64,000 nucleotides of DNA from Promethearchaeati archaeon SRVP18_Atabeyarchaeia-1 (GTDB lineage Archaea > Asgardarchaeota > Atabeyarchaeia > Atabeyarchaeales > Atabeyarchaeaceae): assembly GCA_037308085.1 (NCBI GenBank), contig CP147779.1, positions 704,001-768,000 of the forward strand, given 5' to 3'. A program made the translations under genes and the position numbers. The notes beneath the pieces are model-generated. The model was not told the origin of the DNA. It did no database searches and saw nothing but the letters and a program-made list of their open reading frames with translations. Shown here piece by piece: positions 7,006 to 36,154 of this stretch; positions within the stretch are counted from its first letter, which is position 1; each line of letters begins with the position of its first letter.

Positions 7006-8424
7006 TTGCCAAACTCTAAGATTGACCAAGTCTGTATAGAGATGCTTCGGGAAGTAAAACCAGGACCAGCAGAGAGAGCTAAGTTATCAGCGTCCGTGTC
7101 GAAGGTCATTGACCGGCTCAAGAACCAGATTCTGCAGCTGGGAATAGGTGCATACCCTGAACTGGAAGGATCAGTCGCGCACGGAACTTGGATTTCTGGC
7201 GTACGCGACATCGACGTGTTCATTATTTTCCCACTGCAAACCCCCTTGGACCAGATCAAAAAGACAGGTCTAGAGCTAGGCAAGCAAGTGTCTGACGGAA
7301 ATTGGAGAGAACGATATGCTGAGCACCCATTCATAGAAGCGGTAATTGACGATTACAGAATAGACATAGTACCGTGCTATAGAATCTCGAAATTCTCAGA
7401 AAGAGTCACATCAGTTGACAGGACACCACTTCACACGGAATACCTCGCAAAACGACTCACAGACAAGGAGAGAGACGAGACAATACTCCTCAAAGCATTT
7501 ATGAAAGGTATCGGAGTCTATGGAGCCGAATTGCGGGTGAAAGGTTTCTCAGGATATCTGTGCGAATTGTTGACGCTACACTACGGCTCATTGGAGCAAG
7601 TCCTAAGAGGAGTGCTCCGATGGAAGACCCGGGAAGTAATCGACATAGAGCAACACTACTCCGACAGTGATACTCTGGCAGAAGTATTTGGTGAGCCATT
7701 GATAGTTGTCGATCCAATTGACCCCACTAGGAACGTCGCCGCGGCCGTTTCAGCAGACAGAATCGCCGAGATAAAGGCTGCGGCCCGGTTCTTCCTCTCG
7801 GATCCTTCTGCATTATTCTTCAGACCACCGAAGATGAAACCGCTGAGCAATTCCAGACTTGGTGAAATTATTAGGGATAGAGGAACTGACTCGCTTTTCA
7901 TCCAGCTCCCTTGTCGCAACATATCCCCTGACATTGTCTGGGGCGAACTTGGAAAATCCTTGAAGGCGATAAAGAGGCTACTTGAGCTTCAAGACTTCCA
8001 AGTCATGAGCTGCGACGTGTGGTCTAACGAGAATGACTTGGCAGTAATGGCAATCGAATTGATGTCGGCAAGTCTTCCATCGGTCAAGATCCACGAAGGC
8101 CCTACAGCGGGGAATCCCAACCAAGGGAAATTCCTCGAAGCGCACGCCCATAGCGAGAAGACACTGGCTGGGCCATGGATCAAAGATGGAGAGTGGCAGG
8201 TTGAGCTAAAGAGGGATCACGTGAATGCAAAGAAGATGGTGGAAGGCAAGCTGGCAAAAGAAGAGCCGACTGCGATCGGGCTCTCTAAAGATGTGGGCAA
8301 GTGGATAAAAGAGGGCGGCAAGGTCCTCCTAAATGAAGAGATACTTCCGACATACTCAGCCGATGAGGGTTTCGCTGTGTTTCTTACGAAGTTCTACGGC
8401 AAGCGACCAAGCTGGCTTCGTTAG
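7006..8424 (+). CDS. cca: Archaeal class I CCA-adding enzyme
   Basis: GSVAHGTW...DIDVF, YAEHPF, DIVPCY, SVDRTPLH, GFSGYLCELL, DPIDPTRNVAAA. Confidence 0.95.
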   Translation: MPNSKIDQVCIEMLREVKPGPAERAKLSASVSKVIDRLKNQILQLGIGAYPELEGSVAHGTWISGVRDIDVFIIFPLQTPLDQIKKTGLELGKQVSDGNWRERYAEHPFIEAVIDDYRIDIVPCYRISKFSERVTSVDRTPLHTEYLAKRLTDKERDETILLKAFMKGIGVYGAELRVKGFSGYLCELLTLHYGSLEQVLRGVLRWKTREVIDIEQHYSDSDTLAEVFGEPLIVVDPIDPTRNVAAAVSADRIAEIKAAARFFLSDPSALFFRPPKMKPLSNSRLGEIIRDRGTDSLFIQLPCRNISPDIVWGELGKSLKAIKRLLELQDFQVMSCDVWSNENDLAVMAIELMSASLPSVKIHEGPTAGNPNQGKFLEAHAHSEKTLAGPWIKDGEWQVELKRDHVNAKKMVEGKLAKEEPTAIGLSKDVGKWIKEGGKVLLNEEILPTYSADEGFAVFLTKFYGKRPSWLR

Positions 8425-9599: not shown

Positions 9600-9845
9600 A
9601 CCTCCGCAAACAATATCCGCAAAGACTCCAGTGCCACAGAGAAGAAGTCAAGATGCGCGTCTTCTTGTAGGACCTAGTTACTTCGAATATTAAAGTATTA
9701 GTGTGGCGACTAGGATTGCTGCGGGTTTTAAAAGAGACTGGGTCTCTAAGGAGGTCACCTGCCCGCAATGGTGGATCGATCTGGACCAAGATAAGTCAGT
9801 CACATCTTCTTCTGTGATGAACTGGTCTGCACAGATTAGGAAATC

Positions 9846-9856
9846 AAAAAAGGGGA
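9846..9856 (-). terminator. Oligo-T archaeal terminator after the His-rich repeat gene
   Basis: Minus strand CCCCTTTTTT about 35 nt after the stop at 9891. Confidence 0.5.
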
Positions 9857-9890
9857 AGTTAAGTTAGTGGGCTCCGGTCCTTCTATATTC

Positions 9891-10166
9891 CTATCTCCCC
9901 CTTCCTTTAGCTTTTCCTTTGGCATGCTCCGGGAAGGGTTTCCTGGCCTCCTTGGCTGGCTTAGCCTCATGCATTCCGTGTTCCTTGTGCTCCTCGCCAT
10001 GCATTCCGTGTTCCTTGTGCTCCTCGCCATGCATTCCGTGTTCCTTGTGCTCCTCGCCATGCATTCCAGGTCCCCTATGCTTCTCACCATGCATCCCTGC
10101 TCCTTCTTTTACTTCTTCAGGCTCTTCTTTCTCGACTTCCGTATCTTCCTCTTCTTCTTCTCCCAA
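9891..10166 (-). CDS. Small acidic/His-Met-rich tandem-repeat protein, probably disordered and metal binding
   Basis: Strong SD GGAGGTGA upstream of the TTG start; (GMHGEEHKEH)x3 plus degenerate copies; T-tract downstream. Confidence 0.7.
   Translation of the reverse strand: MGEEEEEDTEVEKEEPEEVKEGAGMHGEKHRGPGMHGEEHKEHGMHGEEHKEHGMHGEEHKEHGMHEAKPAKEARKPFPEHAKGKAKGRGR
9968..10095. repeat. 30-bp coding tandem repeat, 3 perfect copies plus 1-2 degenerate copies
   Basis: gcattccgtgttccttgtgctcctcgccat at 9971, 10001 and 10031; degenerate unit at 10061. Confidence 0.95.
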
Positions 10167-10678
10167 GTTTGGCTTTCACCTCCTAAAGGATTTGAGCAAT
10201 CAACTATCGGCGCTTCTTGTTTATCAAATGCACCTATCTATTGACAGTCCCATTAATGAATAGTGTGGGATTCTTGCTTCCTGTTGAGCCTTCATGACGG
10301 GTCTTGTTCAGACAAAACCACAATGAGCCATCTCTACCTATTCCGTTCTCAGGTACGTTTTGTCTCTTCTCTTTACTTTTCAAAACAAGTCTGCCCGAAG
10401 CCTAGCGTGAGTTACCCCTCCCAATTCATTATAACTCTACTGGCACAGTAGATAGTCATAACTCCGTCGGTAGGCGCGTTTGGCGAAGTCAAGGGTTTGG
10501 AGGGTCGCATGAGACAACTCCAAGCTGCAAGCCCACCACCCCACGCGGTTGGTAACTGACCAGTCTTCAAAGTGGAACAGAACCATGAAGCATACAGGCG
10601 CCAAGACGATCATACGGGAAACAAAGATTAAATATGAAACCAAGCAGAAACTACATGTCAGAATGCGAAGAGTAATGC

Positions 10679-14851: not shown

Positions 14852-17800
14852 TTACTCCTTGTCCCTGTCTTCTTCGAGAGTTAGAAGCTGCTGTTGTGAT
14901 TCCTTCGGTCTCCCCGATTTCAGGTTGCTCCATTCTGATTCTTCAAGCGTCACCCCAACTTGCTCGTAGATGCTCTTGGCGATCTCGCGTCCGATAGTCG
15001 GTATTGAGAGAAGCTGGGAAGGCTTTGAATTCCTTAGGTCACCAACAGTCTTGAAACCGGCGTTGAACAGCATTCTCGCTCTCACCCTGCCTATCCCCTT
15101 CAAGTTCACGAGCTCAAGCAGTTCCTCCTTTACTCCTTCCACGATACGTCTTCTCAGATTCATCGCAAGCGGTAACACATCCTTCCTGCCTAGGAGTTTT
15201 GCGATCTCATAGGTTGAGTAGAGAAGCCAATCCGCTGATTCCACATATCTGAAAATATCTCCTGAGCCAACATCGAAGTTCTCGATGATGCCCTCTTCAG
15301 GGGACTCCTCCATCCATGACAATAGTAACCGAGTCGTCTTGACTTCCGAGAGGAACTGTTCATACTCCACCGGATTGCTCCAAGGATCAGGGACATCCAC
15401 AAGGAATTCGCTGACCGACTCATCCACGAAGGACTCCATCTCCTTGTAGTCCTTCCTTCTCAGGAAAATTGGCTCCATGTCAGGAGTGTGACACATCATG
15501 TGAATCACGCCGATTGCCGTCTTGATCCTGCTACTCTGTATGCTATCTCTAATGATCACAGCCGACTTCGGATCGATGTACAGTTCAGACACCCTGCTCC
15601 CAAAGGGGGTTGCCGCTAATCTTCTTCCCCTCGACTCCTTGAGCATGTTCTCGGAAACCAGAAACTCCAGGACAGTCTCAATCACACCTTCGATGTCCTT
15701 AGGATCATATTGATGACCATAGAAGGTCCTGCCGATGAAACTCAGGATTTCCTCTTGGCTGTTTGCCAGACCCATAGCTACAGACGAAAGAATGTGCGAC
15801 CTGAGGACCGACTCCTTACCAAGCTTCGACCATATCTTCTCAGGCTCCCCGTAAACGTACGTTTCAAGCAGAGTCGCCCGCTCCTCATGCCCGCGCGCAA
15901 CCAGAACAGCCTCACCAATCCTGTCATACTTCGGCCTACCCGCCCTCCCAGCCATCTGCTTATACTCCAAGACCGGGATCGGGTAATACCCAAGACCAGT
16001 CTCATACCTCCTATAATTATCAATTATCACCATTCTAGCAGGAAGATTAACGCCGGCAGAGTTGTGGACTATGAAGCCATTTGCCACAAACATATGATCG
16101 TTTTCGGGTGTGTCTGGCAAAGCCACATCATAAACGTATGAATCTTGCTTGCTATTGCCTATTCTCTTGATGAAATCCCAATAAATATCTCCTTGAAAGT
16201 CATTTGCACGCCATGTTCCACGTATTCTTTGCTCCAATCTGGTTCCACATTGTGGACAAGTTTCAGGCTTGAAGAACTCATCGATATCTCTATTCTGAGC
16301 GATATAGTTCGAGAAAATCCATTTTCCGATCGGATTAAGGCTCCAGAACCATTCGTTCTTGTCGATTGTGCCGATTCTTCTCTTACTAATTAGATGGTAA
16401 TGTTGATTGAGTCTTGTTTCGTTTTTCCTAGGTTCTCTCCCAAGAATATTTCTTATTTCTCTTGATCCTAGTTCTCCTCTTTCGCCCAAGAGTTTGATAA
16501 CCAAGAGTTTCGTTTTACCCCATTGTTTTTGGACTTTGGTTCTCCCAGTGAAAAGCGATCTGTGTATCTTGTAGCCGCACTCCCTGCAAGATACGTATAG
16601 AAGGTTAGCCTCTATTCTTGATACTAATGAGTCGATTTCTCTCTGCTTGGCTGCAACATGGAACCCGACATTTCTTCCAAAATCCACAATACAGCGCCCG
16701 TCAGCAATTATCAATTCATAACTTGGCTTGGTCGAGTATTCTTTCCCTGCGGTTTTGATTACTCTCCCTCTTCTTTTCCTGATCCAAGTGACTATCCCGA
16801 ATCTTAGAAGCAGTTTTTGAACTTGGTCAATAAGCTTTCTGGAGGTGTTAGCAAATCCTACGTTTCTTCCCTTATTGACATATCCGTCGCTATCAAACAA
16901 CCCCTGCAGTAAGCTACCTATGTTTCTCTTGCTCATTGACATGAGCTCATTGTTGATGTACTTGTGTGAGCCTACTTCTACGCCGCATCGGACTAAGAAC
17001 TCTCTGAACCACTTGTTCTTGCCGAGTATGAGTTGAGGAGTTCCGTAGAAATTCACTGTTCTTCTACAACTAATTCCGAGTCTTGAACAAGTTTCTTCGA
17101 CATAAGGAAAGATCTCGGTCTTCGTGCCGACTATAGATGGGGTGCCCTTATAGTGAACCACCCCTCTCCATGTTTCAGCGCCTGAGTAACCATCTCCCAA
17201 CATTACGCCAAGGAAATATGATAATTCAGAGGAAAAGGCTAGGTCAGGGGATTCGGATCGATTATCAATAACGAAGTCGCTGATTGATGGTTGGCTAACT
17301 CTCTCTGTTTCCAAGTTTCGTACCGTAGCTATCTTGTCGGTCTCTCTTACTTCATTGGCAGGAATAACTAGTGGTCTAGTTCCACGCTTGATTAGGATCC
17401 TATGATTAGGGGTGACCTTGATAGAGCGACCTGACACTGATGATATCTCAACTAGAGGAGATGCAGAAGGGAGTCTGCTGATTTGCGAGGCTCTCACTTC
17501 GACTAGCTTGGTTCCGTTCAAGGCGTATAGGGGGTCGGAGGCGCGTAGTTCTGAGACCTCTGTTTCAGCCATTCCGTGCCATATCTTGGTGTCAGGTGAA
17601 AGGCAGAGTGTTGGGGTTGCGCATATGATCTTGACCTTGTTTTCCCTGAAGGCGGCCTCTATGATTCTCCGTTCTTGATACCTTAGGCCTGCGTGGTGGA
17701 ATGCAACGTTCCTTGATGTGAGCTCTGAGAGCATCTCAGTGACCTTGGTGACCTCGCCTGTTCTCAGGATCGAGTTTGATACCTGTTTGAGTGCTCTCTT

Positions 17801-18631
17801 CTCGGGAAGCGATATGATCGGGGCGGTGTGTTTGGCTATTCTGGATGCAAGATTCACGGACTTCTTTCTCGTGTCGGTGAATATGAGCACTTGCCCTCCA
17901 TCTCTCACCGCCTTCAACGCCAAGTCTATCGCTGCTACTCCAATCGTGTTTCGGATCTGCCTCTTCTCGCCATCGCCGAAATAGATCGCCCCTGAATCAT
18001 ATACGCCCTCCCTGAGCTTCACAGGTCGCCACCCGCTTGTTACGAGATCGGCTTTGAGCCACTTCGCTATCTCGTCAGAGTTGCTTATTGTGGCGCTCAG
18101 CGCAAGGACCTGCGCTGATGGGTTCAGCTGCATAAGCCTTGCAAGAACAACCTCGAGTGTAGGCCCTCTCTCATTCTCATTAATCAGGTGAACCTCGTCT
18201 GCAACTATCGTCGTCAGGCTACCCATCCAGTCAGCATGGTGGCGAATCAGCGAATCAACCTTCTCCGTCGTGGACACCACGAGATCAAAGTTGCGCAACC
18301 ACTGGTCCGAGCTATCCAGATCGCCGGTGGACTGCACAACCCGGACACCGATCTTCTCGTACTTCTTGAACTCCCTGTTCTTCTCGTCTGCCAGAGCCTT
18401 GAGCGGAACGAGGTAGATGGCCTTACCACCCGACTCCAATATCGATTTGACCATGCACAATTCTGCGACAAGCGTCTTACCCGACGCCGTAGGAACCGCT
18501 AGAACAAGGTTCTTACCTTCAAGAACCCCTTTCCTGATCGCATCTTCCTGAGGCGGATAGAGGTCCACATAACCCTCCTTCTCCAAGATGGCTTTGACTG
18601 ACTCGGGTACTGCTAGCTCACTGATCTTCAA
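14852..18631 (-). CDS. hel308: Hel308/Hjm Ski2-like DNA helicase containing one intein
   Basis: PTASGKT, DEVH, LSAT, FHHAGL, ATPTL|intein|SAGVNLPA, QMAGRAGRP, C-terminal HhH GIGRVRAR. Confidence 0.93.
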   Translation of the reverse strand: MKISELAVPESVKAILEKEGYVDLYPPQEDAIRKGVLEGKNLVLAVPTASGKTLVAELCMVKSILESGGKAIYLVPLKALADEKNREFKKYEKIGVRVVQSTGDLDSSDQWLRNFDLVVSTTEKVDSLIRHHADWMGSLTTIVADEVHLINENERGPTLEVVLARLMQLNPSAQVLALSATISNSDEIAKWLKADLVTSGWRPVKLREGVYDSGAIYFGDGEKRQIRNTIGVAAIDLALKAVRDGGQVLIFTDTRKKSVNLASRIAKHTAPIISLPEKRALKQVSNSILRTGEVTKVTEMLSELTSRNVAFHHAGLRYQERRIIEAAFRENKVKIICATPTLCLSPDTKIWHGMAETEVSELRASDPLYALNGTKLVEVRASQISRLPSASPLVEISSVSGRSIKVTPNHRILIKRGTRPLVIPANEVRETDKIATVRNLETERVSQPSISDFVIDNRSESPDLAFSSELSYFLGVMLGDGYSGAETWRGVVHYKGTPSIVGTKTEIFPYVEETCSRLGISCRRTVNFYGTPQLILGKNKWFREFLVRCGVEVGSHKYINNELMSMSKRNIGSLLQGLFDSDGYVNKGRNVGFANTSRKLIDQVQKLLLRFGIVTWIRKRRGRVIKTAGKEYSTKPSYELIIADGRCIVDFGRNVGFHVAAKQREIDSLVSRIEANLLYVSCRECGYKIHRSLFTGRTKVQKQWGKTKLLVIKLLGERGELGSREIRNILGREPRKNETRLNQHYHLISKRRIGTIDKNEWFWSLNPIGKWIFSNYIAQNRDIDEFFKPETCPQCGTRLEQRIRGTWRANDFQGDIYWDFIKRIGNSKQDSYVYDVALPDTPENDHMFVANGFIVHNSAGVNLPARMVIIDNYRRYETGLGYYPIPVLEYKQMAGRAGRPKYDRIGEAVLVARGHEERATLLETYVYGEPEKIWSKLGKESVLRSHILSSVAMGLANSQEEILSFIGRTFYGHQYDPKDIEGVIETVLEFLVSENMLKESRGRRLAATPFGSRVSELYIDPKSAVIIRDSIQSSRIKTAIGVIHMMCHTPDMEPIFLRRKDYKEMESFVDESVSEFLVDVPDPWSNPVEYEQFLSEVKTTRLLLSWMEESPEEGIIENFDVGSGDIFRYVESADWLLYSTYEIAKLLGRKDVLPLAMNLRRRIVEGVKEELLELVNLKGIGRVRARMLFNAGFKTVGDLRNSKPSQLLSIPTIGREIAKSIYEQVGVTLEESEWSNLKSGRPKESQQQLLTLEEDRDKE
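16061..17605 (-). mobile_element. Intein (515 aa) with LAGLIDADG homing endonuclease in Hel308 motif V
   Basis: Starts CLSPDT, block B VTPNH, LAGLIDADG helices FLGVMLGDG and LQGLFDSDG, ends YVYDV...ANGFIVHN followed by Ser. Confidence 0.95.
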
Positions 18632-18675
18632 GAGTGTCGCTGACCTCTAACAAAACCTTCAGTGGCTCGGATTAC

Positions 18676-21600
18676 TCAGGCCTTCTTCACGATCCCCTGC
18701 CTTGGCTCAAAGAGCACGCCCTCCTTGACCAACTTATTGATGGCATCCAATGCAAACTGCTTCTCTATCCCCTGAGCCGCGGCCGCTGCAACGATCTTAT
18801 CCACTTGCACGAATCCCTCCTTCGCCCCCTCCCCCAACTCGCGAACCAAAGTGATTATAAGATCAAACCTCTCACGCTGCGACTTCGTCTTCCCCACCAT
18901 GATCGTGTCAATATCAGCCCGCATGGTCTCCCTATCTATCCCCACCATCTTCAGCGAAGTAGTCATAAGGCGGATCACAGCCTCAGCGTCATCCACAGTA
19001 ATCTCCCGCTTCAATGCCATCTTCGCCCTAGACTCAGCCAACCTAACAAGAGCCTCAAGCTGCCTAGCCGTAATCGGCACAGGAGACTCAGGGTTCTCAC
19101 CCATAGCACGAGTCTCCAAGTAGAACTCCTCTATCTTCTTGGCGGCCTCATCAGTCAGCACCGGAGGCACATTCTTCTTAGCATAACTAATATACTTCCT
19201 CAAAAGCAAAGGAGCAATAGGAGCCTCATTACCAGTCGCCTTCGACGAATGCAAAGAAATCACATGCTCCGCCATCTTCCTATCCCTCTCAGACTCAGGC
19301 TTATCCACCATCACGAAAATCAAGTCAAACCTAGAAAGAACCGTAACCGGCAAATTGATGTTCTCAGCAGGATTCTTAAAACTATTATACCTACCCAGCG
19401 CCGGATTCGCAGCCGCGAGAATAGCAGTCCGAGCATTAAGCGTCGCAACAATCCCCGCCTTAGCAATCGAAATAGTGTTATGAAGCACAAGCCCGTGACT
19501 GATAAAGCAGTGATCAGGCTCTACCGTTACATCGTAAACGTATGGGCAAGACCATTTTCCTGTGTTTCTTACCTCCTCATTCCTCCTAACGCGAAGCAGA
19601 CAAATATCGCTTTGGAGCAATGCGTCAATCGCATTGATCTCCGGTTCAATAGCTGCGAGAGTCTTGCGTGCTGATTCTGTGATTGCCTCAGCCAGTTTTT
19701 TGCGGTACTCCTGCGTGTACCCTTCGTGCTCTGCATGGTATATGCGGAACTCGGTGACCCCGATCTTTCGAGCGGCAGTCACCTGAGACCAGCGGAGGAT
19801 GTTTCTTGCACTCCTAACATCTTCCGGAGCGGGATCGAGCGATTCCTTGGTCTTCAGGTATGCCTCCCTGACCTCGCCTAAGCAGGACTCAAGTAATGTG
19901 CGCGTGATGCCGTGCCCTTTCTTGGCAGCAGTCGACAAGACACCTCGGTAGGGGCGACTCAACTCCTGATATAGCTTCTTCACCCGGTCGCCGACCCCTG
20001 GCGGAAAGACATCATGGTCATAGTTAGATGCCTCAGATCGGGCCACAAGCCTGGCTATCCTTTCCTTTCGAGCGTCCCAAGGTTCAATGATAGTTCTAAA
20101 GAAGAGCGGAAGACTACTGCCGCAGATGTATACTTTGAAAGAGTCGTTATGAATATCCCGAACAATTCGGCTCTGAATGCCTGCGCACAACAGCAGATCC
20201 TGATAATCGCAGGCAAGTCCATTCGAAGCTGTCCGATAACATATGCTATCAGTTTCGACACTTCCGTCTCCCAGAAAAGCGGATTGCAGAAAGTTCAAAA
20301 CAACTTGCCTCCCAGAGGTAAACAGCTGAGGGGGAAGTCTCTTGTCGCGGGAGAGAGCTAGAACTTCTCGGAAATTGGATCTAAGCAAATCGCGTATTTG
20401 TGCAGATATATAGCGGATCTCCCTCCTCTTTTCATCATATTCTGGAGGGTCTAATCCAAAGACTTGTTTCATCAGTGTAGTGATGTCGTCTAGGATCTCA
20501 GGTGACGTATTCGAGAAACCAAACTCTGCGGACGAGCCAAAGTGGCTGAACCCCTCCGTAACAAAGTATCCCAAGATACGGGCTAACTGAGGTATCATAC
20601 GCTCTGGCAGAAGAACTGGTTTTGCATTGAAATGGACAGAGTACGGAGCGGCAAGGACAGCCCCCGGATTATGCCCGCTTGGCATCAGACGAAAGGCAGG
20701 CACAAAATCCCCGACTTCGAGCTCCGCAGCCTGCACAGTATACGACTTGTAACCGTCATAGAGAAACATCGGATGCTCGGGTGTGACAACAACCTCACGC
20801 CCATTGCTGAACCTAATCCTACGGAAACGGTCAGGAGCTCGATGCCGACTCACACGGTCTATTCGGACAGACCGAACATTACGGAGGTCAGACGTAAGGA
20901 TCTCCACACCCCGAGATCGCACATCCAAGATCTCACAATTGACTCCTTTGACCACCTCGCCTCGGCTAGCCACAAAAAGTGAGTCAACCAACTCACCAAT
21001 CGGAGTACGTACGCCATTCGCAAGTGCCACCTCCACCACGCGGTGGTACGATTGTTGCTCCATCGCTTGATGTATTGCAACCCTGTCTTGCGGATTCATT
21101 TTGTCAAACTCGTCCACCGCGGCGATGCCCCGATCTGCGAGCACAAGCGCACCGGCTTCCAAGGTCATGTCCCCGGTGTCCGCATCGCGGAGGACCGCCG
21201 CCGTGAGGCCCGCTGCTGTGGAACCCTTCCCCGAGGTGTAAAGACCTCTGGGTGCCAGCCCCGCCGTATACATTAAGAGCTGGCTGTTATGTACTATGAG
21301 GTTCCCTTCAGCGAGGATGAAATGTCCGTTTGAGGTTCCGATGTCATATACAGTTGTTTGCTCGTTCAGAAGGTCAACTTTGGTGACTTGGTCCCAGAAG
21401 ATGTCGGATTCGGCTAGTGTTTCTAGCCAGTCAAGGCAAGGAGATGCGTCGCTATCGTTCTTATCCGGGTCTAATCGTGAGATCACATTTTGCAGGTAAA
21501 CTCGACCTACGTGCTGTCTCTTTTTCTTACCTCTCAGTTCCGCTATGAAGTTCCTAGTCCAGGAATCGCGCTTACTTGTCATTCCCAGTTCTCGTGCGGC

Positions 21601-23928
21601 GCGTACCAACATTGAGCCATAGTTTGGTACTATGTCACGGGACTGGTAGCGTTTCCGAGTGCGCATGCGCTTTACGATTGATTCCAGTTTGTCTTGCTTG
21701 TTGGTTGATACAAGTCTAACCTGTTTGTGGAATGTCAGGAGGTCGGTGCCCTGTATCCTCACATGGTAGTATATGTAACCTTTGTATGGTTCCTTAGTCA
21801 CAGTGGTCTTGAAGATGCTAGCAAAGATGCCCAATGTTGCCAGTAGATCGCTCAATTGGTACGCAAGGGTTCGGCTTTTCGTTGTGCATTGTACCGCCGA
21901 TCCCTTCATGTCAATCGTTCCGTCTCCGGAGAAACAACCAGAGAGTAGTGAAAGGCGCAGAGGGTAAGGTGCAGTGAAGAATTCAGTTGGAATCTGTTTA
22001 TTTTCTGCTCCCGTTCCGAATTTCCGTTCAAACCAGGTGGCTAAGCTTGACTGGCATAGCAGGATAGAATCGTCAGTCGCTGAGAATTTACCGAAGACTG
22101 TTTCAAGATCACTCTTTAGGGAGCTTCTGATCGAATCATTACAGGCGGAAAAACGCACCGTGGTTCCTTCTACGTTGCCTTCGGCGAGATACAAGCCGAC
22201 GATTCGGCCCAATGCTGGTCCGAGTTGCAGCCATCTTGGGAACCACGTGGTGTCTCTTTTTCTGCGGAGCCATGTGCCTTTCGGGATCGAAGCGTTTCCG
22301 TTGACGATTCCGCACATCGTGTTGGCTGATATATTGCATATGGTAGCCGCTGCTCTGGCACTAACGAGATTTGACTGAATGAGGACAAGTTGTGTGTTGA
22401 TTTCCTCAGCGCTTACCAAATCTGTTTCTGGGAACTCTTCGGCTAGATCTATGAAGGGTGATCCTTCCTCTACGTCAACCTGGCGCGCTACTGGAAGGTA
22501 TGTGCCTGGGCGGAGATCTTGACCAACGATCACCTGCAACTTGCCGTCAATAATCGTTGTAAAAGAGTGATCTGGGGTAGCTAGTACCGTTCGCCCTGAT
22601 CTGGTGTGAATGCGGATTAGTCGGTCGGTTCTGTGGCGGCTAACCTCACAGATGAGTGATGACCTAGTCTTCAGGGAGAGTGGATCCATTGTCTGAGTAA
22701 ATATGGTAGCTGGGTCTCCGAGTGGAAGGATCTCTGAATCTCCTCGAAAGACCATCTCATCTCGGTGTGCTGACATCAAGCCATCGACAAGAGATCCTAT
22801 TGACTCTCTATTCCATCGCAAGGTTGAACCGCATTCTCTTCCTACATAGACCTTTTCCGTACCGTGCACGCTCTTTGCAGTTCCTGGATCCCCTATGAGG
22901 AGTACGTTTATTTCTCCTCGGATCTTGACTCCGTCTGGGAGGGTTTTTGGTACTCCTCCGAATAGGGCGAGGGCTATGGCTTCTTTGACGTCTTCGAGGC
23001 CGTAGATGGATGGGGCGATTGATTTTATTATTTTCTGGTGGATCCACTCGTCTTTGGCGAGTTCGATTATGAAGCGTTCTTCTTCTGGTGTGATCTCGAC
23101 TTTCTCGCTTTCCTTGTCCATTGTGTCGACGTAGTTTGAGTCGATGTAGGTTCTGAAGGTGGTTAGGCGGCCTCGTTTCGGGGCGAAGTCCTGTAGGGAC
23201 ATTAGTGCTCCGGTTATTGCTACGCGGTCGCCGGGTCTTGCGATGTCGACGAGGTCGTCCTTTATGATGGCGTCTAGGGATCTTGGCATCTGTCCTGGGG
23301 GGAGTTCCTCTGGCATCTCCTGTATTCTTATTTTTTGCCAGTCTACGAACTTGGAGTCTTCGACTATTAGGTTGAAGGGTCCTTCTCGTTTGCATGCGGG
23401 GCAGGTGACGGGAGGCAGGTACCTTCCCTCAAACTGCTCGACGGTTATCTTGTTGCCGCAGCTGCACTCGAATAGGGCTACGAGGAGTTGGGGCTTGACT
23501 TCGCTAACTCTTGTGATGATGCCGTCAACCATGATTAGTTTGCCAATGTGGTTCGCCCGGATCATGCGAAGCTTGACTTTTCCGGTCGTTACGTTCCTGA
23601 ACCTTGCTTTGAATTCGTGTCCGGATTCGGTAATCTTGGTGACGTAGTCGCGGTCCTCGAGTTCGACTATGGTTTTGACTGAGTCGGAGGCTGCTTTGAC
23701 GCAGTCTTCAGGATCATCGATTATCTGCCTGGCAAGCTGAGGGTCGAAGTCGAGGAGCTCATTGTAATCAATTATGACTGATCTTTCCCCGGTTACTGGA
23801 AGCCTCTGGATCGTCTCACGGTATTTCAGTGACCCAGACTCGGTGCGGAATGACTTTAGGAAGTTCTGGAATCGCTGGAACAAGTCCGCTTGTTCATCAG
23901 TGATGTCTGCGGCACTCTCATTAGCCAT
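18676..23928 (-). CDS. mcm: MCM replicative helicase with two inteins (mature ~696 aa)
   Basis: Zn finger CSC...CPAC, GDPGTAK|S, GLTAAV, VDEFDKM, MEQQ|TISIAKAG, LSRFDL, ITARQLE, C-terminal wHTH. Confidence 0.96.
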   Translation of the reverse strand: MANESAADITDEQADLFQRFQNFLKSFRTESGSLKYRETIQRLPVTGERSVIIDYNELLDFDPQLARQIIDDPEDCVKAASDSVKTIVELEDRDYVTKITESGHEFKARFRNVTTGKVKLRMIRANHIGKLIMVDGIITRVSEVKPQLLVALFECSCGNKITVEQFEGRYLPPVTCPACKREGPFNLIVEDSKFVDWQKIRIQEMPEELPPGQMPRSLDAIIKDDLVDIARPGDRVAITGALMSLQDFAPKRGRLTTFRTYIDSNYVDTMDKESEKVEITPEEERFIIELAKDEWIHQKIIKSIAPSIYGLEDVKEAIALALFGGVPKTLPDGVKIRGEINVLLIGDPGTAKSVHGTEKVYVGRECGSTLRWNRESIGSLVDGLMSAHRDEMVFRGDSEILPLGDPATIFTQTMDPLSLKTRSSLICEVSRHRTDRLIRIHTRSGRTVLATPDHSFTTIIDGKLQVIVGQDLRPGTYLPVARQVDVEEGSPFIDLAEEFPETDLVSAEEINTQLVLIQSNLVSARAAATICNISANTMCGIVNGNASIPKGTWLRRKRDTTWFPRWLQLGPALGRIVGLYLAEGNVEGTTVRFSACNDSIRSSLKSDLETVFGKFSATDDSILLCQSSLATWFERKFGTGAENKQIPTEFFTAPYPLRLSLLSGCFSGDGTIDMKGSAVQCTTKSRTLAYQLSDLLATLGIFASIFKTTVTKEPYKGYIYYHVRIQGTDLLTFHKQVRLVSTNKQDKLESIVKRMRTRKRYQSRDIVPNYGSMLVRAARELGMTSKRDSWTRNFIAELRGKKKRQHVGRVYLQNVISRLDPDKNDSDASPCLDWLETLAESDIFWDQVTKVDLLNEQTTVYDIGTSNGHFILAEGNLIVHNSQLLMYTAGLAPRGLYTSGKGSTAAGLTAAVLRDADTGDMTLEAGALVLADRGIAAVDEFDKMNPQDRVAIHQAMEQQSYHRVVEVALANGVRTPIGELVDSLFVASRGEVVKGVNCEILDVRSRGVEILTSDLRNVRSVRIDRVSRHRAPDRFRRIRFSNGREVVVTPEHPMFLYDGYKSYTVQAAELEVGDFVPAFRLMPSGHNPGAVLAAPYSVHFNAKPVLLPERMIPQLARILGYFVTEGFSHFGSSAEFGFSNTSPEILDDITTLMKQVFGLDPPEYDEKRREIRYISAQIRDLLRSNFREVLALSRDKRLPPQLFTSGRQVVLNFLQSAFLGDGSVETDSICYRTASNGLACDYQDLLLCAGIQSRIVRDIHNDSFKVYICGSSLPLFFRTIIEPWDARKERIARLVARSEASNYDHDVFPPGVGDRVKKLYQELSRPYRGVLSTAAKKGHGITRTLLESCLGEVREAYLKTKESLDPAPEDVRSARNILRWSQVTAARKIGVTEFRIYHAEHEGYTQEYRKKLAEAITESARKTLAAIEPEINAIDALLQSDICLLRVRRNEEVRNTGKWSCPYVYDVTVEPDHCFISHGLVLHNTISIAKAGIVATLNARTAILAAANPALGRYNSFKNPAENINLPVTVLSRFDLIFVMVDKPESERDRKMAEHVISLHSSKATGNEAPIAPLLLRKYISYAKKNVPPVLTDEAAKKIEEFYLETRAMGENPESPVPITARQLEALVRLAESRAKMALKREITVDDAEAVIRLMTTSLKMVGIDRETMRADIDTIMVGKTKSQRERFDLIITLVRELGEGAKEGFVQVDKIVAAAAAQGIEKQFALDAINKLVKEGVLFEPRQGIVKKA
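19477..21051 (-). mobile_element. MCM intein 2 (525 aa; MEQQ|T site) with LAGLIDADG endonuclease and an XRE-like HTH
   Basis: Starts SYH, VTPEHP, ILGYFVTEG, QSAFLGDG, ends YVYDVTV...GLVLHN followed by Thr. Confidence 0.95.
21286..22872 (-). mobile_element. MCM intein 1 (529 aa; Walker A K|S site) with LAGLIDADG endonuclease
   Basis: Starts SVHG, ATPDHS, VGLYLAEG, SGCFSGDG, ends TVYDI...NLIVHN followed by Ser. Confidence 0.95.
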
Positions 23929-34942: not shown

Positions 34943-36154
34943 ATGTCTAGCCAAATTATCTCTGCAGTAGAAGGGGCTCTTGGCTGCCCTATTAGGAAAT
35001 ACGAAGAGGGTCGGATAAGTTTCTTTGCTCCTACACTCAAAGAAATAGTCTCAGCTTCCGACGTAGTCTTCTACAATCCTCGGATGGAGTTTCAGCGCGA
35101 TGTCTCGGTCTGTATTCTCAGGACATATCAGAAGATAACGGGCAGTAAGATGGATCTTTGTGAACCCCTCACAAGCTCTGGTGTCAGGGCAATTAGATGG
35201 GCTTGTGAGGTACCAGAAACTAGGAGCATAGTGGCTGGCGACATCAACCCCAAGGCAGCTTTACTCGCAAATGCCAATGCCAGCTTCAACAACGTTCTGG
35301 GAAAGATGGAAGTTTTCAGAGCTGATGCGAACCTAATGTTGGATACCTTCTCATTGAACGGACGACGTTTTGATGTGGTTGACGTAGATCCTTTTGGTTC
35401 TCCGGTTCGCTTCATCGATTCTGCCTTGAGAGTACTAAAAAGCAAAGGTGCATTGCTGTGCCTTACTGCAACAGATATGCAACCGCTTTGTGGAGTTCAT
35501 CAAGATGCGTGCCTCCGGAAGTATGGGGGGGTATCCCTCCGAACGGAATACTGCCACGAGATCGCGGTCAGGCTTCTGATAGGCGCGACGGTGCGGGTTG
35601 CGGTGGGGCATGACTTTGGGGTTGGGGTGGTCTTCTCTCACAGTTCTGATCATTACATACGGGCATATCTTCGGATGCGACGGAATGCTGTTGACGCTGA
35701 TACTAGTGTAAGAAAGATGGGTTTCATACTCCATTGCTTCAACTGTGGCAATAGAAGAGTCGTGCCGGCTCTTGCGGTCTGCGAGGGAGAATTAAAATGT
35801 GGGTTATGTGGCTCACAAATGAGAGTAGCAGGACCACTATGGTGCGGAGAGCTCTGGGAAAGAGGATTCGTCGATGTTGCGATGAGTGTGGCCGAGGGAG
35901 GGGCGGATGTGAAGAATAGAAGACTTATGAAGATGCTGAGCCTGATTGCATCAGAAGATGGCGGACCCCCAACCTACTACGACATACACAGTATCTCGGA
36001 TTCAGAGGGTACTAGTTCGCCCCCCACCTCAAGAATCATTGAGGAGCTTCGAAGCAGCGGGTATTTCGCTTCGGCGACACATTTCAGAGGAACCTGTGTG
36101 CGGACAGATGCAGATATAACAACGATTAAATCGCTTGTCAAGCAGTCGACCTAG
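34943..36154 (+). CDS. trm1: tRNA (guanine(26)-N2)-dimethyltransferase
   Basis: VFYNPRM..QRD, SGVRAIR, DVDPFGSP, TATD, CFNC...CGLC, GPLW.G. Confidence 0.95.
   Translation: MSSQIISAVEGALGCPIRKYEEGRISFFAPTLKEIVSASDVVFYNPRMEFQRDVSVCILRTYQKITGSKMDLCEPLTSSGVRAIRWACEVPETRSIVAGDINPKAALLANANASFNNVLGKMEVFRADANLMLDTFSLNGRRFDVVDVDPFGSPVRFIDSALRVLKSKGALLCLTATDMQPLCGVHQDACLRKYGGVSLRTEYCHEIAVRLLIGATVRVAVGHDFGVGVVFSHSSDHYIRAYLRMRRNAVDADTSVRKMGFILHCFNCGNRRVVPALAVCEGELKCGLCGSQMRVAGPLWCGELWERGFVDVAMSVAEGGADVKNRRLMKMLSLIASEDGGPPTYYDIHSISDSEGTSSPPTSRIIEELRSSGYFASATHFRGTCVRTDADITTIKSLVKQST

What the first reader, a model, noticed from the sequence alone, without database searches (positions are those of the whole stretch)
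15800..23400. Synonymous codon skew flips exactly at intein insertion sites
Hand counts on the coding strand gave the following. In MCM, a 64-codon stretch just upstream of intein 1 (EEERF...NVLLI) is 60/64 A/C-ending with no T-ending codon. The first 60 codons after intein 2 are 55/60 G/T-ending with no A-ending codon. The extein between the two inteins is mixed. Hel308 shows the same polarity, with 24/31 A/C before its intein and 33/40 G/T after. Each strand is therefore G/T-rich running 3' away from the homing-endonuclease cut site, like a miniature replication origin. Inference: repeated homing cycles leave a strand-asymmetric mutational scar from resection or repair synthesis over several hundred bp. 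Such a scar could also mark sites of lost inteins. Caveat: weaker one-sided patches occur in cca (~7320-7500) and trm1 (~35520-35700) without inteins.
Basis: partly seen in the sequence, partly recalled or inferred. Interest (0 to 1): 0.75.

Follow-up and report, generated by a model that had tools for sequence, protein, structure and literature searches.

The report
Mirror-image base skew around inteins
In this Asgard archaeon the DNA on either side of self-splicing protein inserts (inteins) is pushed to almost pure A/C on one side and G/T on the other at silent codon positions, a strong and apparently undescribed strand-specific footprint that most likely records repeated break-and-copy repair at these sites.

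Summary
The hand counts are exact (60/64 A/C before MCM intein 1, 55/60 G/T after intein 2; Hel308 24/31 and 33/40). The pattern holds genome-wide. Of 15 inteins, 11 show an upstream A/C to downstream G/T flip of at least +0.47, a size reached at 0.6% of random gene positions, and always with the same polarity.

Intein-free MCM, AtpA and Hel308 in the two sister genomes carry no skew, although silent sites between the genomes are saturated.

The skew belongs to the DNA strands, not to translation:
- it affects every codon family;
- it shifts the first base of Leu codons;
- it appears in intergenic DNA;
- it crosses into genes of either orientation;
- EF-1alpha and the thermosome genes are neutral.

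It fades within about 300-900 bp of intein junctions.

An intein is neither necessary nor sufficient. Intein-free AtpB and EF-2 carry the same, actively maintained flip across the family. So do intein-free Bathyarchaeia MCM genes. Inteins in 15 other Asgard MCM genes show none.

Best reading (about 50%): recurrent break-initiated gene conversion with a keto-biased, strand-specific repair or repair-synthesis bias. The polarity excludes damage to resected 3' tails. I found no published description.

The parts
18676..23928 (-). MCM gene (1750 codons) interrupted by two inteins
   Evidence: Translation. Intein_splicing and LAGLIDADG_3 hits in this frame. Alignment to the intein-free orthologue of G002.
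22873..23748 (-). MCM N-extein A/C-ending patch (codons ~60-351). The + strand is G/T-rich here.
   Evidence: keto3 is -0.5 to -1.0. 60/64 A/C with no T in codons 281-344.
21286..22872 (-). MCM intein 1 (529 codons, Ser1...His-Asn|Ser), in the Walker A motif
   Evidence: Boundaries. keto3 is -0.25.
21052..21285 (-). 78-codon extein between the two inteins, mixed third positions
   Evidence: G 29, C 23, A 14, T 12.
19477..21051 (-). MCM intein 2 (525 codons, Ser1...His-Asn|Thr)
   Evidence: keto3 is +0.12.
18679..19476 (-). MCM C-extein G/T-ending patch (codons 1484-1749). The + strand is A/C-rich here.
   Evidence: keto3 is +0.6 to +1.0. 55/60 G/T with no A. A weaker skew of the same sign continues into the first ~160 codons of Hel308.
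18634..19674 (+). 346-codon antisense 'shadow' ORF, a by-product and not a gene
   Evidence: Listed. Its first codon position is the complement of the MCM third position. With no A-ending MCM codons, no antisense codon starts with T, so no stop codon can occur.
14852..18631 (-). Hel308-type helicase gene (1259 codons) with one intein
   Evidence: Translation. Pfam intein and LAGLIDADG hits. Intein-free 757-aa orthologues in G001 and G002.
17606..17776 (-). Hel308 upstream A/C-leaning patch (codons ~285-341), moderate
   Evidence: keto3 is -0.33 to -0.47. The 60 codons upstream give -0.40.
16061..17605 (-). Hel308 intein (515 codons, Cys1...His-Asn|Ser)
   Evidence: The strongest LAGLIDADG_3 hit in the genome.
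15782..16060 (-). Hel308 downstream G/T-ending patch (codons 857-~950)
   Evidence: keto3 is +0.6 to +0.8. One of the 36 extreme regions in the genome.

Best explanation
The skew is a neutral, DNA-level footprint of a directional process that starts at a fixed point and runs outward on both sides. That process is most likely recurrent double-strand-break repair or gene conversion at homing sites, that is, intein homing with co-conversion of the flanks.

On each side of the break only one strand is re-made or donor-derived: the strand that runs 5'->3' away from the break. Suppose that strand is systematically favoured when it carries G or T. Two routes could do this:
- G.T mismatches in heteroduplex DNA are processed differently from A.C mismatches. 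This would be a keto-biased, strand-specific gene conversion, for example through the EndoMS/NucS enzyme this genome encodes.
- Repair synthesis mis-inserts G and T.

Silent sites then drift to G/T on that strand and to A/C on its partner, in mirror image across the site.

On the gene-conversion route the intein itself has no homologous partner in an empty allele, so it forms no mismatches and stays neutral. The effect is strongest where homing is current, in alleles present in one genome and absent in its sisters. It would fade once an intein is fixed.

Shown: the pattern, its polarity, its DNA-level nature, its decay with distance, and its presence or absence among sister genomes.
Inferred: that breaks and gene conversion are the cause, and which biochemical step carries the bias.
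For: - Site association: 11 of 15 inteins flip, all with one polarity, against 0.6% of random positions.
- Natural experiment: G000 has inteins and flips in MCM, AtpA and Hel308. G001 (same genus) and G002 (same family) have intein-free alleles with flat keto3. Four-fold sites between G000 and G002 are saturated, with identity about 0.28.
- Independent recurrence next to MCM inteins in other Asgard lineages: G013, G019/G029 and Hermodarchaeota.
- A property of DNA, not of decoding:
  - every codon family shifts to both A and C, or to both G and T;
  - Leu TTG rises from 0.03 to 0.28;
  - the keto fraction at first positions goes from 0.46 to 0.535;
  - G000-specific changes at codon positions 1 and 2 follow the same direction (p=0.04);
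  - the EF-2/hypF intergenic DNA is 68% G+T on the + strand;
  - skew domains continue through genes of both orientations;
  - EF-1alpha and the thermosome genes are neutral.
- Scale: the decay of -0.42/+0.49 within 300 nt, -0.12/+0.20 at 300-600 nt and about 0 beyond 900 nt is compatible with co-conversion tract lengths (my knowledge, not checked against a source here).
- Inteins are near neutral. In MCM each intein leans the way expected if it were a flank of the other.
- Only the origin-like polarity occurs among strong flips: 123 versus 0 positions at >=1.0.
- A centre also sits beside a free-standing LAGLIDADG gene.
- G000 is a slight protein-level outlier only near the insertion sites.
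- EndoMS/NucS is present in every lineage with flips whose assembly is at least 89% complete.
Against: - AtpB and EF-2 have no intein in G000, G001 or G002. AtpB also has none in metagenome relatives down to 78% identity. Both still carry the same flip.
- Inside their A/C patches about a third of four-fold sites differ A<->C between G000 and G002, while almost none became G/T. The force there is ongoing and does not need an intein in cis.
- Their flip points do not coincide with the intein sites seen in homologues.
- Intein-free Bathyarchaeia MCM genes show full flips.
- Inteins in 15 other Asgard MCM genes show none. Four G000 inteins that still carry LAGLIDADG matches show none either.
- NucS presence does not separate lineages with flips from those without.
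- Reaching about 94% saturation needs many events per lineage or a very large population. No rate is known.
- No direct evidence of breaks or of intein presence/absence polymorphism within a population was obtained.
Confidence: 0.5

Rival explanations
1. The skew centres are persistent, locus-specific hot spots in very conserved genes. They could be sites where recombination between diverged alleles, or local DNA synthesis, habitually starts. They would exist independently of inteins. Inteins land in, or arrive with, such DNA because they target the same ultra-conserved motifs. An intein-bearing allele brings its skewed flanks with it when it converts a naive allele.
For: - Flips without inteins are conserved over deep divergence in AtpB and EF-2.
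- Intein-free Bathyarchaeia MCM genes flip in the Walker A/B zone, where inteins insert elsewhere.
- Further centres lie at the split RuBisCO-like gene, at the 3' end of S12 and at the end of IleRS, with no recognised endonuclease nearby.
- The skew is stronger inside conserved EF-2 than in neighbouring hypF.
Against: - In three genes the intein-free alleles of the closest relatives have no skew at the very same motifs. So the motif alone does not create a centre.
- No conserved nucleotide element was seen at the AtpB or EF-2 centres.
- No mechanism for a host-encoded hot spot is known.
Confidence: 0.27
2. Selection on translation or mRNA. A/C-ending codons are decoded by Watson-Crick pairing, and the mRNA is unstructured, before the intein. 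G/U-ending codons are wobble-decoded, and the mRNA is structured, after it. This slows the ribosome so that the intein can fold and splice during translation.
For: - The flip is fast-to-slow in the direction of translation at every site.
- It starts within a few codons of the C-terminal splice junction.
- The intein-free sister alleles lack it.
Against: - The same skew runs through neighbouring genes on the opposite strand with the codon sense inverted: hypF next to EF-2, and the + strand genes next to AtpB.
- It appears in intergenic DNA.
- It shifts first-position Leu synonyms and non-synonymous sites.
- EF-1alpha, the thermosome genes and the AtpA genes of G001 and G002 show no A/C preference, so A/C is not the 'optimal' set.
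- AtpB and EF-2 flip without any intein.
- Up to 265 consecutive 'slow' codons are hard to explain as a pause.
Confidence: 0.07
3. Damage (deamination or other lesions) to the single-stranded 3' tails exposed by resection at the endonuclease cut. This is the first reader's 'resection' option and the mechanism behind strand-asymmetric mutation at human meiotic hotspots.
For: Mirror-image asymmetry over 0.3-2 kb around a break site is what this mechanism gives in human germline data (PMC7615360).
Against: - The polarity is opposite. The strand ending 3' at the site (the coding strand upstream) is about 94% A/C here. Damage to exposed C and A would deplete exactly those bases.
- A is more depleted than C on the G/T-rich strand (about 8% versus 18%). 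As far as I know spontaneous deamination of C is much faster than that of A, so simple deamination should deplete C more.
Confidence: 0.03
4. Assembly or consensus artefact (chimeric junctions, strain mixing).
For: The genomes are metagenome-derived.
Against: - The reading frames are intact and the proteins conserved.
- The pattern is confined to weakly selected sites.
- It recurs in independent assemblies (G001, G002 and metagenome contigs) for AtpB and EF-2, and in other lineages for MCM.
Confidence: 0.01

Closest known systems
Co-conversion of flanking exons or exteins during intron and intein homing (e.g. the plant cox1 intron, PMC3192709; T4 phage endonucleases, PMC2790892)
   Same: The tracts are centred on the insertion site and extend a few hundred bp into both flanks. 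They are tied to presence or absence of the mobile element among close relatives.
   Different: The known signature is donor-derived sequence identity. It is not a strand-specific base-composition drive to about 94% A/C or G/T at silent sites with mirror polarity.
Strand-asymmetric mutagenesis around meiotic double-strand-break hotspots in humans (Hinch et al. 2023, PMC7615360)
   Same: The asymmetry flips sign at the break site and spans about 1-2 kb of flank.
   Different: There the mutated bases are C and A on the unresected single strand, which is the opposite polarity. It is seen as a mutation-rate excess, not as a near-saturated composition. It concerns eukaryotic meiosis, not archaeal homing sites.
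Replication-origin keto/GC skew
   Same: The geometry is the same: each strand is G/T-rich running 5'->3' away from the centre.
   Different: - The scale is 0.3-4 kb rather than a replichore.
- The magnitude is up to 0.9 rather than a few per cent.
- There are a dozen centres, several inside genes.
- This chromosome's own large-scale skew is weak and purine-type: GC and TA skews have opposite signs.
GC-biased gene conversion and strand-biased mismatch resolution in break repair (PMC9001825)
   Same: A recombination-linked fixation or repair bias that acts mainly on silent sites and can mimic selection. In that work strand geometry at the break decides which strand wins.
   Different: The bias here is keto versus amino and depends on the strand. 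GC3 hardly changes (about 58-60% versus 55%). No such bias has been described in archaea as far as my searches show.

Membership tests
Intein with homing endonuclease (MCM x2, Hel308) | Hint/intein splicing domain in frame within a host protein | tested here: met
   PF14890 matches within the 1752-aa and 1264-aa open frames.
Intein with homing endonuclease (MCM x2, Hel308) | Nucleophile at position 1, C-terminal His-Asn, and Ser/Thr/Cys at +1, with the host motif restored on removal | tested here: met
   The junctions read S...HN|S, S...HN|T and C...HN|S. The exteins align without a gap to the intein-free orthologues.
Intein with homing endonuclease (MCM x2, Hel308) | LAGLIDADG endonuclease domain | tested here: met
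   PF14528 hits in all three, E from 1e-18 to 1e-9. Catalytic activity was not tested.
Replication origin | Turning point of the chromosome-wide cumulative skew | tested here: not met
   The cumulative GC-skew extremes lie at about 0.21 and 1.37 Mb. The window lies at 0.70-0.77 Mb.
Replication origin | Intergenic origin region with an adjacent Orc1/Cdc6 gene and repeats | tested here: inconclusive
   The intein-associated centres and those in AtpB, EF-2 and the RuBisCO-like gene lie inside coding sequence; two others (S12, and the free-standing LAGLIDADG gene/hypC) lie at gene ends. No search for Orc1/Cdc6 genes or origin repeats was run.
GC-biased gene conversion | Rise of G+C at silent sites in the affected tract | tested here: not met
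   Third-position G+C is 58% upstream and 60% downstream, against 55% in the background. The change is A/C versus G/T.
Translational codon-usage bias | The same preferred codons in highly expressed genes, gene-wide | tested here: not met
   EF-1alpha is +0.07 and the thermosome genes are -0.1 to -0.2. AtpA of G001 and G002 is flat while AtpB is skewed. The patches are partial and independent of orientation.
Homing-associated co-conversion tract | Flanks of the intein-bearing allele differ from sister intein-free alleles more than distal parts do | tested here: inconclusive
   G000 is a slight outlier within 150 codons of the sites: 90 versus 71 mismatches proximal, 280 versus 324 distal. The effect is small and could equally be caused by the base bias itself.
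Homing-associated co-conversion tract | Demonstrated cleavage of the empty site and transfer between alleles | not testable with these tools
   This needs population read data or experiments.

The most novel reading that the evidence does not exclude
Archaea possess a strand-specific, keto-biased gene-conversion or repair-synthesis drive. Wherever DNA breaks recur at a fixed point, it rewrites silent sites to near-pure G/T on the strand leaving the break. Inteins, free-standing endonuclease loci and some unrecognised chronic break sites in core genes such as AtpB and EF-2 would be such points. The skew would then be a readable, dated record of homing activity and of hidden recombination hot spots. 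It would also be a non-adaptive force strong enough to change codon usage and some amino acids in essential genes.
Probability: 0.4. Interest if true: 0.9.

Novelty: new variant of a known kind. Interest (0 to 1): 0.85.

Why it matters
If the skew is a repair or gene-conversion footprint, several things follow.
- It would give the first sequence-only read-out of how recently and how often a homing element has moved. It might also reveal break hot spots where no element is visible.
- It would show a recombination-linked bias of a new type, keto versus amino and strand-dependent. That bias can drive silent sites to about 94% and leak into protein sequence. This would matter for codon-usage analyses, for dN/dS tests and for phylogenies of exactly the conserved marker genes (MCM, ATPase subunits, EF-2, RNA polymerase) used to place Asgard archaea.
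- It would constrain models of archaeal break repair, because the polarity points to the re-synthesised or donor strand and not to the resected tail.
- On the practical side, it creates long stop-free antisense ORFs that can mislead gene callers.

Tried and rejected
- **Translational optimisation.** Rejected: EF-1alpha, the thermosome genes and sister AtpA are neutral, and the skew is independent of gene orientation.
- **Lost intein in AtpB.** Homologues carry inteins at query positions about 271 (61 cases), about 297 and about 341. The flip lies at about 318-326, so there is no exact match.
- **Lost intein in EF-2.** All intein-bearing homologues found have the intein at the P-loop, about 560 codons from the flip.
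- **EndoMS/NucS as the lineage factor.** It is present in all lineages with flips, but also in many without. It is not discriminating.
- **A conserved nucleotide target at the AtpB and EF-2 centres.** None was seen.
Not confirmed: Pfam gives only an HTH domain, and NCBIfam and PDB sequence searches gave nothing convincing. No structure prediction was run.
- **Association of all skew centres with endonuclease loci.** 4 of 11 centres lie within 4 kb, against 7% expected. This is suggestive but incomplete.
- **Polarising synonymous changes with the sister genomes.** Not possible, because silent sites are saturated.
The boundaries were then set by numeric index instead.
- **Literature searches** for codon or strand skew at inteins found no prior description. 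The two Atabeyarchaeia genome papers mention neither inteins nor local skew.
Full report
**What is in the window.** Window 18676-23928 (- strand) encodes an MCM helicase of 1750 codons with two inteins, at codons 352-880 and 959-1483. Window 14852-18631 (- strand) encodes a Hel308-type helicase with one intein, at codons 342-856. The window is G000:C1:704001-768000 of a closed 2.81-Mb genome. Its family-level relative G002 is titled Candidatus Atabeyarchaeum deiterrae Atabeyarchaeia-2. The organism is therefore an Atabeyarchaeia-type Asgard archaeon, in line with PMC11291895.

**The observation.**
- Throughout, 'keto3' means (G+T-A-C)/N at third codon positions on the coding strand.
- Every hand count was reproduced exactly.
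The MCM N-extein from about codon 60 to 345 has keto3 of -0.5 to -1.0, and the whole C-extein has +0.6 to +1.0. The inteins are near zero and the 78-codon middle extein is mixed.
- Hel308 shows about -0.4 before its intein and +0.7 to +0.8 for about 90 codons after it.

**Rarity.**
- Only 36 regions (13.5 kb) of the genome reach |0.7| over 60 sites in one phase.
- In 2581 ORF-based genes, the 60-codon downstream-minus-upstream difference has sd 0.19. It exceeds +0.47 at 0.63% of positions and +0.8 at 0.04%.

**All inteins in the genome.**
- I located 15 inteins in 13 host genes.
- Eleven have a difference of +0.47 to +1.37: AtpA +1.37, RNR intein 2 +1.20, Hel308 +1.10, RpoA' +0.93, MCM +0.80 and +0.80, PolB, RpoB, PolD, RNR intein 1 and UvrB. 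All have the same sign.
- Four have none: AGOG, RfbB, NrdD and IscU.
- The strongest G/T-ending patches in real genes are C-exteins in five of seven cases.
- Pooled over the flipping hosts, the skew is -0.42/+0.49 within 300 nt of the junctions and -0.12/+0.20 at 300-600 nt. It is gone beyond about 900 nt.

**Sister genomes as controls.**
- G001 (same genus) and G002 (same family) have intein-free MCM (729 and 705 aa), AtpA (600 aa) and Hel308 (757 aa). All three are flat in keto3.
- Four-fold sites in AtpA between G000 and G002 are only about 28% identical, which is saturation.
- So in three genes the skew goes with the intein-bearing allele and not with the gene or the motif.

**The skew belongs to the DNA strands, not to decoding.**
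- In every amino-acid family both A- and C-ending codons rise upstream and both G- and T-ending codons rise downstream.
- Leu TTG goes from 0.03 to 0.28. The keto fraction at first codon positions goes from 0.46 to 0.535.
- G000-specific changes at codon positions 1 and 2 lean towards A/C upstream (25 versus 17) and towards G/T downstream (24 versus 13), with p=0.04.
At EF-2, a G/T-rich + strand domain (103.9-108 kb) covers the - strand EF-2 gene, which is A/C-ending. It also covers the 224-nt intergenic spacer (68% G+T) and the + strand hypF gene, which is G/T-ending. An A/C-rich domain on the other side (100-103.5 kb) covers genes of both orientations. The same holds around AtpB and around S12.
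- EF-1alpha and both thermosome genes are neutral, so A/C-ending codons are not the expression-optimal set.
- On the G/T-rich strand the composition is about G 40, T 32, C 18, A 8.
- The polarity is always origin-like. Among strong adjacent flips (>=1.0) there are 123 positions with this polarity and none with the reverse.
- The chromosome's own large-scale skew is weak and purine-type.

**An intein is not required.**
- AtpB and EF-2 carry no intein in G000, G001 or G002. Both still switch from -0.9 to -1.0 to positive values at the same codon in all three genomes.
- Within their A/C patches about one third of four-fold sites differ A<->C between G000 and G002, while almost none became G or T. 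The force there is ongoing.
- The AtpB flip is also present in metagenome relatives at 91% and 78-79% identity. It sits at another position in one relative at 68%.
- Intein-bearing AtpB and EF-2 homologues are common elsewhere. Their insertion points are AtpB query positions about 271, 297 and 341 and the EF-2 P-loop. These do not coincide with the flips, which lie at AtpB about 318-326 and EF-2 codon about 617.
- Other centres lie at a RuBisCO-like gene split into two ORFs, at the S12 3' end next to an 805-aa HTH protein, and beside a free-standing LAGLIDADG gene.

**An intein is not sufficient.**
- Among relatives, MCM flips occur in G013 and in G019/G029, there even after a 177-aa mini-intein. 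They also occur in Hermodarchaeota.
- Inteins in 15 other Asgard MCM genes show none. Among them the four G003-group (genus g3) genomes all carry inteins at the same two sites, several of them only about 195-255 aa long.
- Two intein-free Bathyarchaeia or uncultured MCM genes (L126, L103) flip in the Walker A/B zone.

**Interpretation.**
- A site-centred, bidirectional, orientation-independent pressure that is strongest at the least constrained positions is best explained by a neutral directional process tied to DNA breaks or gene conversion.
- The polarity is informative. The strand that would remain as the 3' tail after resection is the A/C-rich one. This excludes damage to exposed tails, which depletes C and A on that strand at human hotspots.
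- It points instead to the strand that is re-synthesised or donor-derived. Either G and T are mis-inserted during repair synthesis, or G.T and A.C mismatches in the annealed heteroduplex are handled unequally.
- EndoMS/NucS is said to prefer G/T-containing mismatches (my knowledge, not tested here). It is encoded in all lineages with flips whose assembly is at least 89% complete, but also in many lineages without flips.
- Neutral inteins fit the conversion model, because an insert has no mismatching partner.
- The flips of three inteins absent from both sisters (MCM +0.80, AtpA +1.37, Hel308 +1.10) are among the strongest. Inteins that G001 shares with G000 have weak or no flips in G001. This fits a signal that tracks ongoing homing.
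- The AtpB and EF-2 cases remain unexplained. They keep a substantial rival alive: persistent hot spots that are independent of inteins.

**Prior knowledge.** Full-text searches found no description of codon or strand skew at intein sites. The Atabeyarchaeia genome papers mention neither inteins nor local skew. Earlier notes of this scan had seen the same skew at atpA, atpB and EF-2 in this genome. I re-tested those observations here.

**Verdict.** The resection mechanism is rejected on polarity. Necessity and sufficiency of an intein are both rejected. The feature appears to be new and is of high interest.

Noticed in passing
window 18634-19674 (+); also 15710-16141 (+): Long stop-free antisense ORFs (346 and 143 codons) lie opposite the G/T-ending patches. 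They are a mechanical by-product of the absence of A-ending codons and could be miscalled as genes.
   Followed up: partly
L176:470-1700 (G000:C1:2712470-2713700, - strand): The RuBisCO large-subunit-like gene is split into two overlapping ORFs of 308 and 106 aa. Pfam RuBisCO_large profile positions 2-143 and 215-255 match, and the middle is missing. A strong skew centre sits at the break.
   Followed up: partly
L173:694-3108 (-) and L175:51-1670 (-): Two paralogous large proteins (805 and 540 aa) of no recognised family, apart from an HTH domain, lie next to S12 and NrdD. Each has an A/C-ending patch. A homologue sits next to S12 in G002 as well.
   Followed up: partly
L049:2235-5999 (-) (G000:C1:606735-610499): A 1255-codon ORF lies between atpA and atpB and abuts atpB. 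In G001 and G002 the two ATPase genes are also 6-7 kb apart. This is unusual for an archaeal A-type ATPase operon.
   Followed up: no
L054 (G000:C1:657493-662403, - strand), intein codons 916-1382: The PolD DP2 intein ends in Tyr-Asp instead of His-Asn, directly before the CDGDED catalytic motif.
   Followed up: no
window 9840-10244 (+): An ORF with a short peptide unit repeated head to tail at least three times near its start.
   Followed up: no
L150:5735-7792 (+) (Bathyarchaeia metagenome-assembled contig): An intein-free MCM gene that is G/T-ending along its whole length (+0.5 to +1.0). It looks like the downstream half of a centre lying upstream of the gene.
   Followed up: no
whole genome G000: The chromosome-scale GC and TA skews have opposite signs (purine-type) and are only about 0.02-0.08. 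This is qualitatively different from the local keto-type domains.
   Followed up: partly
G000:C1:1432482-1432706 (- strand gene upstream of RNR): The A/C-rich domain upstream of RNR intein 1 reappears in the 3' end of the neighbouring upstream gene, 1.2-1.5 kb from the junction. At this locus the domain crosses a gene boundary.
   Followed up: partly
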